Shown piece after piece: positions 6,001 through 9,000 of a DNA stretch of 11,276 bases (positions are counted from its first letter, which is position 1; each line of letters begins with the position of its first letter). The stretch is from positions 1 through 11,276 of IMG/VR virus record IMGVR_UViG_2548876964_000017; one strand, given 5' to 3'. The DNA is from a virus. Taxonomy: Duplodnaviria; Heunggongvirae; Uroviricota; Caudoviricetes. The position numbers are program-made.

Positions 6001-9000
6001 CATCGATCGTACAGAACAGATAGTGAAACCAGCCATACTGAGGCGCACGAAAACGCCTCCCCTGCTTAATTTCCGGGTCGGCTTCAGAATTGTGGGATTT
6101 TATGTGTTGTGTCATCGGATTCTCCGGTGACAGCAGGTGTCAGTTGTTCAGGCTGACTGCGCGAATTGTAAGGCAATACGCCGGAATGTACAAACAGAAA
6201 ACCCGTCAGTAAGACGGGCTTAACAAGCAGGGGCGGTTACTTTAATAATTTCAGTGCCTTTACATCAACTTCAACACTGCTCAGGTCTTTATCAATTTCA
6301 CCCTCAATTCTTACTTTGTCTTTCGGAGAAACATTCTGCCCGGCCCATACGCTGTCATCAATATCCGTGACAATTGTCCCGCTATTGTCACGAAACTCAT
6401 AACGTTCATCACCCACTTTTTTAACGATGCTCCCTTCAAGGATAACCCATGCATCATCCTTCAGTTCTTTTGCCTGCGCTACTGTTGAACGCTCTGCTTC
6501 TGGCCCCTGGAAACCACCCTGCTGTGCAAAAGCGCCAAAAGACACACCGGAAATAAGTGCTGCAATCAATACCTTTTTCATTCATAGTCCTCTTTCAGAG
6601 ATGAACATTCAAACAGCATTTTCAGTATGGTAAAGCGCGGGTGCGTTGAGGATGCCTGACACATCAGAGGTGGCGGGAGATTACTCCCCCGCCTGGTCTC
6701 TTACTTCTCAGATTCGTAGTCTACGAAGACAGCGACCTCCGTCTGACCGGTTCGGATTCGCACCTCGCAGAGGTCTTTCCTCGTTACCAGTGCCGTCACT
6801 ATGACGGTTAAACAGATGACGATCAGGGCGATTAACATCGCCTTTTGCTGCTTCATAGCCTGCTTCTCCTTGCCTTTCGGCACGTAAGAGGCTAACCTAC
6901 ATGTGTTCAGCATGGATTGAGCCTCAGATTAATGTTAAGCGTCTTGCAGGACGCGTAATGTTAACTGGGGCTTTTCTCTATCTGCCGTTGGTGTTCATGC
7001 CCGAGGCAGATAGCCTCAAGCACCCGCTGCAATTCTACTTAACTATCCTTTTCCCGCAAACCGTTTTTATCCCCAGCGGCAAATCGAATACTCCACCAGC
7101 GCCACCGCCATCGCAATTCCTACCGTTGTGAATGCTTCAGGCCAGGTCATTGATTCACCTCCTGCGGCGGTTCTGGTAGCGACATCCAGTGGGTTGCTTG
7201 CCTAAGATCATTACCCGGACTAACTGCTATACCTCCGCGCCGGAACGTGCCTCCGAGATAGCGTGCGGAATATATTAATGGCCCAGCCTCGCTATCGATA
7301 TTCATCGAAATAAGCACGTTCTGGCTCTTTTCAGGCATTCGCTCAGTACAGCTTATCCAGCCATCCAGAGTTATCGGAGATCTGGTTGACGTTTCCGAGA
7401 TTTCCCGAAAATTGTTGGTTGACGAATTCTTATTTTCCCGAAAGTTTCCGGCCTGAAGCATGGCGACGCGGCAGGCGTTCCAGCCATCAGCATATGTTTT
7501 AGTTACACCGTCGAGATGGCAGGTAAGCAAATCCATTTCATCAGGCACTACCATTGCTATCGGCTCTGCTTCCAGTGATGCCAGCGCGATACGAAACACA
7601 TTAGCCAGCAGGCTGTCTGAAGACTTGTTATCGTGCGCCGAGTCGCTCAGGAAGCCTGTGATGTATGATTTAATCTCCGCGCGTTCTCTGGTAATAGTGC
7701 TCATATCAGTTTTCCTTATACGGATTAATTTTATTGTGCAGTGCGCTGAATGATTCCCATGTCACATCGGTATATAGCTCAATAACTGGTTCAAATGTCC
7801 TTCCAATTATCCAGACCAGTAATAGCGGGGATATCGGTATCATCAACACTATAAACAGAATGAAAAACAGAAACTCTGTTGTTCTGCTCTTTCGTGGGTA
7901 ATTTTTTTCTAAATAATGTTTCATTTCTTACCGCCCTTTCGGGCGGCCTCCTGATGTTCTGAGGGTGCAGGAATCCCTCCGGTTAAGGATTTAATAAAAA
8001 TCGTTTCTGATTTAAATCTTCAGTATTTAGTTGTTAGTTGGTTTATCGCCTTTATGCTTCAGCCTTATTTCGCAACCAGACACAAACCGGGCCATCTTCC
8101 GTATCATGAATGGAACCAATAAACCAGCCATCGCCCTCTGGTCGTTCCGGTTCCCATGCAGAAATATCAGCATCACACGCATCAAGGTCAGCACATCCTT
8201 CATCTCTGAAGCAGAGGACGTATTGAAGATTATTTTCCTCCATCCAGGCGTTAAACTCTTCCGTTGAAATATATTCCCGACCATCACAGAATTTTTCATA
8301 TTCAGGATGTGTCCAGTAGCCATATCCGTCACGAACTACCGGCATTTCTTTAATTTTACTCACTGTTAACCTCCTGCAACGCTACACGATACGCCTTCTT
8401 TATCCACGCCTTACTGCCATATAATTTCGTCTTCATAATAAACACACCTGCACGACTCGCCGATATCCCCGGACAGGTTAACAGCACAGCATCCACCACA
8501 CGGTTATGCTTCCGAAACTCCATTACAGTACTGCTGATAACCACCTGCCCCACCGGGCCGTAATCCTGATACAGGATTTTCACGCAGACACCCTCCTGTC
8601 GAAATAAACGTAGTTATTCACTATGCGCAGCGGCATGCCTAATTTTCTGGCAATTTCCCTTCTTTGCATGCCTCTCTGATGCAGTTGCCGCGCCAGCTCA
8701 ATATCACGCTGAGAATATTTTGCCGACGGGTGAAAATCACCACGTAACATCATGCTGATGCCCAGCTCCCGTGCCTTCGTTCTCACTGCCGCTTCAGTTC
8801 GTCCGATAAGTGCGCCAACGCTTTTTACCTTCATCGTTCCCGCACACTGCCGGAGTATCATGATTTCCGCCCGGCACCACGTCTTCCACCCACTCACCGC
8901 TGCTGTTCTCTGGTGGCGGTAATATCCCGGAGAATATCCCGGCACTTGTTCAGCTCCCGCAGCGCGGCGCAGACTCGCTCCCACTTCTGAACCTGACCTT

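What the first reader, a model, noticed from the sequence alone, without database searches (positions are those of the whole stretch)
8052..8861. Three translationally coupled small genes: HTH protein, 75-aa protein and a strongly acidic 103-aa protein
The three ORFs overlap at their stop and start codons (GTGA at 8580-8583; 8-nt overlap at 8356-8363) and the last two have strong SDs, which implies a fixed stoichiometry. The terminal protein has a large net negative charge, as seen in DNA-mimic anti-restriction or anti-defence proteins. A regulator-plus-two-partners layout also fits a toxin-antitoxin or small defence module. I recognise none of the three families.
Basis: inference. Interest (0 to 1): 0.55.

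Follow-up and report, generated by a model that had tools for sequence, protein, structure and literature searches.

The report
Three unrelated small prophage accessory genes
These are three real, tightly packed early genes of unknown function in an E. coli lambda-like prophage; they turn up separately in other phages, so they are ordinary mix-and-match phage cargo rather than a three-part machine, although the very acidic one belongs to a widespread uncharacterised phage family.

Summary
Three minus-strand ORFs overlap (GTGA at 8580-8583; 8 nt at 8356-8363), the last two follow AGGAGG sites, and the last protein has net charge -15. All three are under purifying selection, and RefSeq annotates them identically in EHEC prophages. 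One correction: the HTH gene most likely starts at GTG 8897 (105 aa), overlapping the upstream DUF1627 stop by GTGA. That makes four coupled genes.

The "fixed three-partner module / toxin-antitoxin / defence" reading is not supported.
- Overlaps are the default in these operons (33 of 48 junctions in four annotated phages).
- In 80-locus samples taken around each gene, the genes assort independently. The acidic gene lacks both partners in 55/80 close and 72/80 diverse loci. Distant homologues of the 75-aa gene (27 loci) have neither partner nearby. The HTH gene lacks the 75-aa gene in 29/70 loci.
- None of the three matches a Pfam family above threshold, an NCBIfam model or a PADLOC model.

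All three belong to PHROG families; two are of unknown function and the HTH family is labelled a regulator. The acidic protein is a stand-alone copy of a widespread phage domain (718 clusters). Its acidity is conserved and it has no solved-fold match. A decoy or anti-defence role stays open but untested.

The parts
8580..8897 (-). Basic tandem-HTH DNA-binding protein. Most likely 105 aa from GTG 8897.
   Evidence: PHROG 323 'transcriptional regulator, D5-like', E 5e-23, covering only a third of the profile. C-terminal HTH_7, HTH_23 and Sigma70_r4 hits fall just under the Pfam thresholds. The N-terminal extension is conserved, with W7 invariant in 7/7 homologues. dN/dS 0.15-0.20. Net charge +13.
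8356..8583 (-). 75-aa basic protein, PHROG 1001, with a predicted beta-beta-alpha x2 two-layer sandwich.
8052..8363 (-). 103-aa strongly acidic, Trp-rich protein: a stand-alone copy of the PHROG 1372 domain.
8894..8897 (-). GTGA overlap of the DUF1627 stop with the probable HTH start.
   Evidence: Sequence read. The same arrangement is annotated in strain KGu016, where the two CDS overlap by 4 nt.
8580..8583 (-). GTGA overlap of the HTH stop with the 75-aa gene's start. AGGAGG lies at 8592-8597.
8356..8363 (-). 8-nt overlap (GTGAGTAA) of the acidic gene's start with the 75-aa gene's stop. AGGAGG lies at 8370-8375. This is also a mosaic joint.
   Evidence: In other phages an unrelated 84-aa gene ends at the same place with an ATGAATGA overlap.
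8894..9628 (-). Upstream DUF1627 (YdaW-like) gene, the usual left-hand neighbour of the HTH gene.
   Evidence: Pfam DUF1627, E 3e-78. It lies directly upstream of the HTH gene in most of 70 informative loci; DUF977 takes its place in the rest.

Best explanation
The window is the early-right operon of a Rac/lambda-type prophage of enterohaemorrhagic E. coli. On the minus strand the order is: O-like and DnaC-like replication genes, DUF1627, the three genes, DUF4014, DUF551, hok/sok, DUF968, RusA, Q. The three genes therefore sit in the replication-to-Q ('nin') interval.

Shown:
- They are three separate, exchangeable accessory cassettes.
- No promoter-like or terminator-like site lies on their strand among them.
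- They are packed start-on-stop, as most genes in such operons are.

Inferred:
- They are read through from the early promoter, and the overlaps allow termination-reinitiation translation. This is an economy of packing and says nothing about stoichiometry.
- Each protein acts on its own.
- The first is a small, basic, two-HTH DNA-binding protein that travels with the end of the replication module (DUF1627 or DUF977).
- The second is a small alpha/beta sandwich with an ACT- or ferredoxin-like shape, probably a dimeric ligand- or protein-binding accessory protein.
- The third most likely works as a stoichiometric binder or decoy for a basic host protein, probably one that binds nucleic acid. That would make it a host-takeover or counter-defence factor.

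The last point is my committed guess. I put it at about 0.3. The modular, independent-cassette reading I put at about 0.75.
For: Context: Pfam hits for the neighbours and the RefSeq annotation of the identical O111 prophage. The consensus scan of 7000-9700 found no terminator-like site and only two promoter-like sites, neither on the minus strand within the trio.

The genes are real: dN/dS 0.08-0.36.

Coupling is generic: 33/48 junctions overlap in four other annotated phage operons.

Independence, from single loci:
- The acidic gene occurs without the other two in Rac-SA53, mEp460, Erwinia phage vB_EhrS_59 and strain STO_Bone2, and in mEp213, PY54, phiPSA1 and phi1026b.
- The 75-aa gene occurs without either partner nearby, next to xis/int, in Fels-1, phi467, 24B and a Klebsiella phage.
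- The HTH gene occurs without the 75-aa gene in KGu016, D6, Parlo and two Vibrio phages.

Independence, from counts in IMG/VR loci:
- Of 72 informative loci holding a >=91%-identical acidic gene, 25 have the window's arrangement and 44 have an unrelated 84-aa gene upstream instead.
- Of 71 loci holding the 75-aa gene, 27 have neither partner.
- Of 70 loci holding the HTH gene, 29 lack the 75-aa gene.
- Across all 80 loci of each sample, the acidic gene has neither partner within the fetched flanks in 55/80 close and 72/80 diverse loci.

In complete E. coli genomes the acidic gene is found at 1202 places, the 75-aa gene at 560 and the HTH gene at 1144. The full arrangement is present in 517 genomes.

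For the acidic domain as a binder:
- Net charge is conserved, -13.5 +/- 3.9 in 132 diverse representatives.
- An invariant Trp/Gly/Pro/His scaffold is combined with variable acidic loops.
- The domain occurs alone, in tandem, or fused to unrelated segments, as a portable binding module would.
- In mEp213 it lies between N and cIII, the position of ral in lambda (the lambda gene map is from my own knowledge).
- It lies near Lar or DNA methyltransferase genes in several phages.
Against: - No experiment and no homologue of known function exists for any of the three, so all functions are inferred.
- Among close relatives the 75-aa gene always has the HTH gene directly upstream (44/44 loci at >=94% identity). 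A functional HTH/75-aa pair cannot be excluded on recent timescales.
- The HTH and acidic genes co-occur within about 2 kb in two unrelated phages, D6 and Parlo. The charges are complementary (+13, +6, -15), which would suit an interaction.
- The IMG/VR samples are redundant and dominated by E. coli, so the counts are descriptive only.
- The link to methyltransferase or Lar genes is weak: 5 of 25 non-redundant loci, with no proper baseline.
- The 75-aa model rests on a shallow alignment, and two of its five models had low confidence.
Confidence: 0.72

Rival explanations
1. The three proteins (or the 75-aa and acidic pair) form one functional module, such as a toxin-antitoxin pair with its HTH regulator or a small prophage-encoded defence system. 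Translational coupling would then set their ratio.
For: - Overlapping start and stop codons with strong SD sites.
- An HTH gene followed by small genes resembles many type II TA operons.
- The charges are complementary.
- HTH-75aa adjacency is invariant among close relatives.
- The exact trio is kept at >=99% identity in about 500 EHEC genomes.
Against: - Each gene is found without the others in many phages, and the junctions accept insertions.
- Distant homologues of the 75-aa gene never have the HTH gene within the 1.5 kb searched on either side (27/27).
- There is no PADLOC hit (best E 0.03, 12 bits) and no toxin or antitoxin Pfam family.
- The folds do not resemble known toxins.
- The high conservation in EHEC reflects one recently spread prophage lineage.
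- Overlaps are the rule across the whole operon.
Confidence: 0.07
2. The acidic 103-aa protein is specifically a DNA mimic that blocks type I restriction-modification or another DNA-binding defence enzyme, in the way Ocr or ArdA do. The other two genes are bystanders. This is the specific DNA-mimic form of the decoy guess in the best explanation, not an exclusive alternative to it.
For: - Charge density of -0.146 per residue lies outside the range of 100 neighbouring ORFs and is conserved across the family.
- The gene lies in early operons, downstream of N in mEp213.
- It sits close to Lar-like or DNA methyltransferase genes in PY54, phiPSA1, 06-00048 and a Pseudomonas-type contig.
Against: - There is no sequence match to the Ocr, ArdA, ArdB or Ral Pfam families, or to any PDB chain.
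- The most conserved residues are Trp, His, Gly and Pro, plus one fixed D-T-E-D-G hairpin, rather than a regular array of carboxylates.
- In this prophage the gene lies after the replication genes, not among the first genes expressed.
- The domain is often fused to unrelated segments, which is unusual for known mimics.
Confidence: 0.15
3. The ORFs are decaying or non-functional filler in a defective prophage.
For: The host prophage in O111 11128 carries IS insertions and pseudogenes elsewhere. No function is known for the three genes.
Against: All three show purifying selection, dN/dS 0.08-0.36. Their lengths are conserved across genera. Homologues are present in functional phages such as D6, mEp213, PY54 and Fels-1.
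Confidence: 0.03

Closest known systems
Accessory small ORFs of the lambda nin region and exo-xis region (NinB-NinH, Orf60a/61/63/73, Ea8.5, Ea22)
   Same: Small genes lying between the replication genes and Q, or between exo and xis in the homologues. They are packed with overlapping start and stop codons, are exchanged as cassettes among lambdoid phages, and are mostly of unknown function. The 75-aa family is found in the exo-xis region of Stx phage 24B and of Fels-1. That these lambda genes are dispensable for growth is from my own knowledge.
   Different: None of the three matches any Pfam family above threshold. They belong to other PHROG families: 323, 1001 and 1372.
DNA-mimic anti-restriction proteins (T7 Ocr, ArdA, and similar small acidic inhibitors)
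   Same: Small, early-expressed, very acidic phage proteins. The acidity here is conserved across the family.
   Different: No sequence or fold similarity. The conserved core is aromatic (Trp/His/Gly/Pro) and the domain is often fused to other segments. No activity has been tested.
Type II toxin-antitoxin operons with an HTH antitoxin (HigBA, HipBA; the neighbouring YdaS/YdaT pair is annotated this way)
   Same: An HTH gene followed by small, translationally coupled genes.
   Different: The partners are not co-inherited, there is no toxin family or toxin fold, and the 75-aa gene exists without either partner in other phages.
ACT / ferredoxin-like two-layer alpha-beta sandwiches (aspartokinase regulatory domain, BMC shell proteins)
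   Different: Sequence identity is 13%, there is no Pfam ACT match, and the predicted strand order is beta-beta-alpha-beta-beta-alpha. This is one of the commonest small folds, so it carries little functional information.
Myb/SANT-like and GcrA-like HTH domains followed by a resolvase- or sigma-70-region-4-type HTH
   Same: The pattern W..AE..L ... IG.LIGRT..AVR.KA..LG in the N-terminal half, and a canonical HTH in the C-terminal half. There are weak hits to a Myb-like domain (2llk), GcrA (5yiu) and HTH_7.
   Different: All matches are below significance or curated thresholds. The DNA target and role are unknown.

Membership tests
Type II toxin-antitoxin module | Toxin and antitoxin genes are inherited together as an adjacent pair | tested here: not met
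   The 75-aa gene has no HTH or acidic gene nearby in 27/71 loci. The HTH gene lacks the 75-aa gene in 29/70 loci. The acidic gene has neither partner in 55/80 and 72/80 loci.
Type II toxin-antitoxin module | At least one protein belongs to a known toxin or antitoxin family or fold | tested here: not met
Type II toxin-antitoxin module | One product is toxic and is neutralised by the partner | not testable with these tools
   Needs expression and rescue assays.
Known anti-phage defence systems (PADLOC-DB v2) | Significant match to a defence-system protein model | tested here: not met
   Only a CasR HTH hit at E 0.031, 12 bits, for the HTH protein. Nothing for the other two.
DNA-mimic anti-restriction proteins (Ocr, ArdA and others) | Sequence membership in a described family (Pfam Ocr, ArdA, Antirestrict, Ral, Lar) | tested here: not met
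   No Pfam family at E <= 0.01 and no PDB chain with a credible match.
DNA-mimic anti-restriction proteins (Ocr, ArdA and others) | Fold similar to a solved mimic | tested here: not met
DNA-mimic anti-restriction proteins (Ocr, ArdA and others) | High, conserved negative surface charge | tested here: met
   Net -15 over 103 aa. Family mean -13.5 +/- 3.9 in 132 diverse representatives. More acidic than all 100 neighbouring ORFs sampled. Only total charge was measured, not how the charges are placed on the surface.
DNA-mimic anti-restriction proteins (Ocr, ArdA and others) | Binds and inhibits a DNA-binding enzyme | not testable with these tools
   Needs plating assays on restricting hosts and binding assays.
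PHROG 1372 (unknown function) | Significant full-length match of the 103-aa protein to the family profile | tested here: met
   E 2.8e-56, residues 1-102 against profile positions 55-158 of 194.
PHROG 1001 (unknown function) | Significant full-length match of the 75-aa protein | tested here: met
   E 8.3e-38, residues 1-74 against profile positions 1-74 of 75.
PHROG 323 ('transcriptional regulator, D5-like') | Match over the family profile | tested here: inconclusive
   E 5e-23, but only profile positions 156-248 of 319 are covered. The protein shares one domain of that family, not the whole architecture.
Helix-turn-helix DNA-binding domains (Pfam HTH_7, HTH_23, Sigma70_r4_2) | Score at or above the curated gathering threshold | tested here: inconclusive
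   HTH_7 scores 22.3 bits against a cut-off of 23.8; the others are lower. The pattern is consistent across five homologues.
ACT domain | Sequence match to the Pfam ACT families, and the canonical strand/helix order | tested here: not met
Lambdoid nin-interval accessory genes (a positional class) | Located between the replication genes and the Q antiterminator in the early-right operon, and variably present among related phages | tested here: met
   Gene order. Variable content of the interval.

The most novel reading that the evidence does not exclude
The acidic 103-aa protein represents a large, unrecognised family of phage counter-defence or host-takeover proteins: PHROG 1372, 718 clusters at 50% identity, in phages of Enterobacteria, Pseudomonas, Burkholderia, Vibrio and others. 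The family would have a new fold and would work as a nucleic-acid mimic or decoy, alone or as a targeting module fused to other domains.
Probability: 0.15. Interest if true: 0.6.

Novelty: new member of a known kind. Interest (0 to 1): 0.27.

Why it matters
As a three-gene module the finding does not hold, so it opens no new system. Three things remain useful.

(1) It is a clean example that start/stop overlap in phage early operons should not be read as evidence of a protein complex.

(2) It gives a probable start-codon correction for a DNA-binding protein that is annotated in hundreds of EHEC genomes.

(3) It gives a defined candidate family. This is an orphan-fold domain with conserved acidity, widespread in temperate phages of Proteobacteria and sometimes located beside Lar, Ral-position or methyltransferase genes. 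It would be a reasonable entry in an anti-defence or host-takeover screen.

Tried and rejected
- Pfam, NCBIfam and PADLOC scans of the three proteins gave nothing usable beyond sub-threshold HTH hits.
- PDB sequence searches gave only chance or compositional hits. The TPR/LGN hits for the HTH protein had no matched stretch passing on its own. A profile search gave weak Myb, GcrA and HTH hints.
- Fold searches:
  - The acidic model has no PDB match, and BFVD returns only its own uncharacterised family.
  - The afdb50 library was unavailable.
  - The 75-aa model hits the generic ACT/BMC sandwich only.
- The first homologue search for the 75-aa protein returned 9 fragments. In the collection its 90% cluster is headed by the neighbouring gene's product. 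This was solved by searching with an alignment.
- I looked for a Cys/His metal site in the acidic protein. C26 is not conserved in diverse members (17%). From the hairpin register, H86 and C94 would face opposite sides of the sheet. Rejected (plus reasoning from the secondary structure).
- I tested whether the genes found upstream of the acidic gene elsewhere (the 84-aa 'rac21' and D6 orf95) are remote homologues of the 75-aa protein. They are not: hhalign probability <1%.
- I looked for a conserved neighbour of the acidic domain across 25 non-redundant loci. None dominates: 4 DNA methylases, 1 Lar, 1 pentapeptide-repeat protein, 1 reverse transcriptase, plus integrases and excisionases.
- Rfam, promoter and terminator scans found nothing on the genes' strand inside the trio.
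- Literature searches for the accessions, PHROG ids and the 24B homologue found no functional data.
- A diverse 16-sequence alignment was too variable for a locus scan and was replaced by a 5-sequence one.
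Full report
**Where the window comes from.** The stretch 7900-9000 is 100% identical to prophages in many enterohaemorrhagic E. coli, for example O111:H- 11128 at NC_013364 2574445-2575545. The RefSeq annotation there and Pfam scans of the window's ORFs give this minus-strand order:
- an O-like gene (10385-11236) and a DnaC/IstB-like ATPase (9632-10378);
- DUF1627/YdaW-like (8894-9628);
- the three genes of the finding;
- DUF4014 (7706-7924) and DUF551 (7147-7704);
- hok/sok, a BOF/YgiW-like gene, DUF968, RusA and antiterminator Q (4047-4427);
- a Rce1/CPBP-like membrane protein, an AraC-type regulator, three tRNAs and the STnc100 sRNA.

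The trio therefore lies in the replication-to-Q interval of a Rac/lambda-type prophage. This is the positional equivalent of the lambda nin region.

**Checking the observation.** Every statement of fact in the finding is correct.
- The HTH stop and the 75-aa start share GTGA at 8580-8583.
- The 75-aa stop and the 103-aa start share 8 nt (GTGAGTAA) at 8356-8363.
- AGGAGG precedes the two downstream starts, by 8 and 6 nt.
- The last protein has 24 acidic and 9 basic residues: net -15, pI 4.2.

PGAP annotates the same three CDS (WP_000603384, WP_000699809, WP_000034815). Nei-Gojobori dN/dS against diverged homologues is 0.12-0.20 for the acidic gene, 0.08-0.36 for the 75-aa gene and 0.15-0.20 for the HTH gene. 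All three are genuine genes under purifying selection. The consensus scan of 7000-9700 found no terminator-like site and no promoter-like site on the genes' strand within the trio. No Rfam family matches there either.

**A correction to the 5' end.** Homologues of the HTH protein carry an N-terminal helix with the pattern W..(A/D)E(I/L/V)..L(R/K). They come from phage D6, E. coli KGu016, E. coli 06-00048, Serratia phage Parlo and two Vibrio phages. The Trp is invariant in 7 of 7 sequences.
- In the window this helix is encoded upstream of the ATG at 8861. A GTG at 8897 gives MSGWKTWCRAEIMILRQ... (105 aa).
- In D6 and 06-00048 the equivalent GTG follows a strong AGGAG site.
- The 8897 start overlaps the DUF1627 stop as GTGA (8894-8897). 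This is exactly how PGAP annotates the pair in KGu016.

So the coupled chain has four genes, and its first member is a gene that nobody would include in a "module".

**Is coupling informative here?** No. I counted overlaps between successive same-strand CDS in the annotated early operons:
- Rac-SA53: 5 of 7;
- mEp460: 6 of 12;
- D6: 10 of 14;
- Fels-1: 12 of 15.

That is 33 of 48 junctions in all. Overlap is the default packing of these operons. It cannot be used on its own to argue for fixed stoichiometry.

**Do the three genes travel together?** They do not.

Individual annotated loci:
- The acidic gene occurs without the other two in Rac-SA53 (91% identity), mEp460, Erwinia phage vB_EhrS_59 and strain STO_Bone2.
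- In Rac-SA53, mEp460 and STO_Bone2 it is preceded by an unrelated 84-aa gene ('rac21') that ends in the same kind of 8-nt overlap.
- Phage D6 has the HTH gene 2 kb upstream of the acidic gene, with five other genes between them and no 75-aa gene.
- In strain 06-00048 the order is HTH, 75-aa, a SAM methyltransferase, the 84-aa gene, then the acidic gene.
- In KGu016 the HTH gene is followed by DUF4406 and DUF4752 genes.
- Homologues of the 75-aa protein at 40-56% identity sit close to xis/int in Fels-1, phi467, Stx phage 24B and a Klebsiella phage, with neither partner within 3 kb.

IMG/VR samples of 80 loci per gene:
- Of 72 informative loci with an acidic gene at >=91% identity, 25 have DUF1627>HTH>75aa>acidic. 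44 have the 84-aa gene upstream instead. 2 have a distant homologue of the 75-aa gene but no HTH gene. 1 has DUF1627 directly upstream.
- Of 71 informative loci with the 75-aa gene, 31 have the acidic gene directly downstream, 10 have a methyltransferase there, 3 have something else and 27 (all distant homologues) have neither partner.
- Of 70 informative loci with the HTH gene, 41 have the 75-aa gene downstream and 29 do not. Almost all have DUF1627, or otherwise DUF977, upstream.
- In a second, diverse sample of acidic-domain loci, 72 of 80 have neither partner within 3 kb.

In complete E. coli genomes, at megablast sensitivity, the acidic gene occurs at 1202 places in 780 genomes. The 75-aa gene occurs at 560 places in 529 genomes, and the HTH gene at 1144 places in 771 genomes. 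The full arrangement is present in 517 genomes.

The one tight link is HTH>75aa among close relatives (44/44 loci at >=94% identity). It disappears at greater divergence, so it is best read as recent co-inheritance.

**What each protein is.**

*HTH protein.*
- It matches PHROG 323 ('transcriptional regulator, D5-like') at E 5e-23, but over only one third of that profile.
- It scores just under the Pfam thresholds for HTH_7, HTH_23 and sigma-70 region 4 in its C-terminal half.
- With the restored N-terminus, the first half has a Myb/SANT- or GcrA-like pattern. Only weak PDB profile hits support this (2llk, 5yiu; E 0.2-0.8).
- It is strongly basic, net +13.
- A small two-HTH DNA-binding protein is the reasonable reading. 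Its target is unknown.

*75-aa protein.*
- It belongs to PHROG 1001 (E 8e-38) and has no other family match.
- An AlphaFold2 model (pLDDT 88.9, from a shallow alignment; two of five models were poor) has two beta-beta-alpha units.
- This is a very common two-layer sandwich and carries little functional information.
- No toxin fold appears among the matches.

*Acidic protein.*
- It belongs to PHROG 1372 (E 2.8e-56).
- An exhaustive profile search finds 718 clusters at 50% identity.
- In many of these the roughly 100-residue unit is an N- or C-terminal domain of a longer protein. It also occurs duplicated in tandem, or joined to unrelated segments. These include a DHH/DHHA1 phosphoesterase and pieces of the DUF551-type family.
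- In phage records it occurs in Escherichia, Klebsiella, Erwinia, Yersinia, Pectobacterium, Pseudomonas, Burkholderia, Vibrio and other phages.
- Across 132 diverse representatives the domain keeps a net charge of -13.5 +/- 3.9.
- The same set keeps the signature V.RD..G.W.HP ... W ... W.P..P.G.GWF..SIHDTEDGP.C.W.R.
- The acidic residues of the central loop (residues 53-79, lower model confidence) are variable in position.
- The AlphaFold2 model (pLDDT 83) has two helices and a three-stranded sheet.

**Is the acidic protein a DNA mimic or anti-defence protein?**

In favour:
- The charge density (-0.146 per residue) lies outside the range of 100 ORFs sampled from the same kind of neighbourhood, and of every other protein in the window. 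It is also conserved.
- In mEp213 the gene lies between N and cIII, where lambda carries ral (the lambda map is from my own knowledge).
- In PY54 it lies 1.4 kb from a Lar-like gene.
- It is adjacent to DNA methyltransferases in phiPSA1, a Pseudomonas-type contig and the 06-00048 arrangement.
- Among 25 non-redundant loci, 4 have a DNA methylase and 1 a Lar gene within two genes.

Against:
- There is no similarity to any described mimic or anti-restriction family.
- The conserved core is aromatic rather than a carboxylate array.
- The domain is frequently fused to other segments.
- In this prophage it sits after the replication genes.
- The neighbourhood signal is weak and has no baseline.

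I keep it as a lead, not a finding. I give about 0.3 that the protein is a stoichiometric binder or decoy of some host protein, and about 0.15 that it is specifically a DNA mimic against restriction or a similar defence.

**Toxin-antitoxin or defence module.** PADLOC gives only a 12-bit HTH hit. No TA family or fold is found. The co-inheritance expected of a TA pair fails. In particular, the 75-aa gene occurs in many phages with neither of these partners nearby, which argues against it being a toxin neutralised by one of them. I give this reading about 0.07.

**Verdict.** The finding describes real genes accurately. Its main inference, a three-partner unit implied by translational coupling, is not borne out. 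The region is ordinary, mosaic, nin-type cargo of a lambdoid prophage. All three families are already catalogued; two have no known function and the third carries only a generic regulator label. The salvageable points are the probable start-codon correction for the HTH gene and the acidic orphan-fold domain as a candidate for anti-defence or host-takeover screens. Literature searches found no functional work on any of the three.

Noticed in passing
window 7924-7952 (minus strand): A GC-rich hairpin (ACCGCCC-TTTC-GGGCGGC, 7930-7947 in + coordinates) lies between an AGGAGG site (7947-7952) and the ATG of the DUF4014 gene (7924). The SD is about 22 nt from the start codon unless the hairpin forms, which suggests a split Shine-Dalgarno arrangement. 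No T-run follows, so it is not a classic terminator. The 146-nt gap folds slightly better than shuffled sequence (z = -2.1).
   Followed up: partly
window 8894-8897 and 8861-8897: The RefSeq start of the 'DNA-binding protein' (ATG 8861) probably truncates a conserved N-terminal helix. GTG 8897 gives a 105-aa protein and a GTGA overlap with the DUF1627 stop.
   Followed up: yes
L002:2754-3008, L003:2754-3008, L010:2805-3059, L013:1765-2019: An unrelated 84-aa protein ('rac21', with a CPFCG motif) is the commonest upstream neighbour of the acidic gene in E. coli prophages (52 of 80 close loci). It uses the same kind of 8-nt start/stop overlap. It may be a more constant partner of the acidic gene than the 75-aa gene is. 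Its function is unknown.
   Followed up: partly
L237:3282-3941, L206:3285-4076, L193:3282-4256, L178:~3314-4177: In Pseudomonas-type viral contigs the acidic-domain gene is followed directly by one of two genes. One is a conserved protein beginning ERPILFSAPMVRAIL.G.KT.TRR and ending NPWVWVVEFKR, with no Pfam hit. The other is an N6/N4 DNA methyltransferase.
   Followed up: partly
protein collection: The 90%-identity clusters that hold the 75-aa and HTH proteins are headed by products of the neighbouring genes (an acidic-protein homologue, and a DUF1627 protein). This appears to be a clustering artefact. It hides these proteins from single-sequence searches.
   Followed up: partly
window 6701-7025; 1196-1386; 1463-1712; 3077-3901: A hok/sok type I toxin-antitoxin locus, the sRNA STnc100, three tRNA genes (Met/Ile-type CAT, Arg TCG, Arg TCT), and a Rce1/CPBP-like membrane protease gene just downstream of Q. 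These are typical moron cargo of EHEC lambdoid prophages.
   Followed up: no
P0147 (305 aa), P0193 (455 aa): The acidic domain occurs as a tandem duplication in one protein, and fused to the C-terminus of a DHH/DHHA1 phosphoesterase in another. This hints that it is a portable interaction module.
   Followed up: partly
window 8052-8897: The net charges of the three products are complementary: +13, +6 and -15. This is the only feature that still speaks for a possible physical interaction between them.
   Followed up: no
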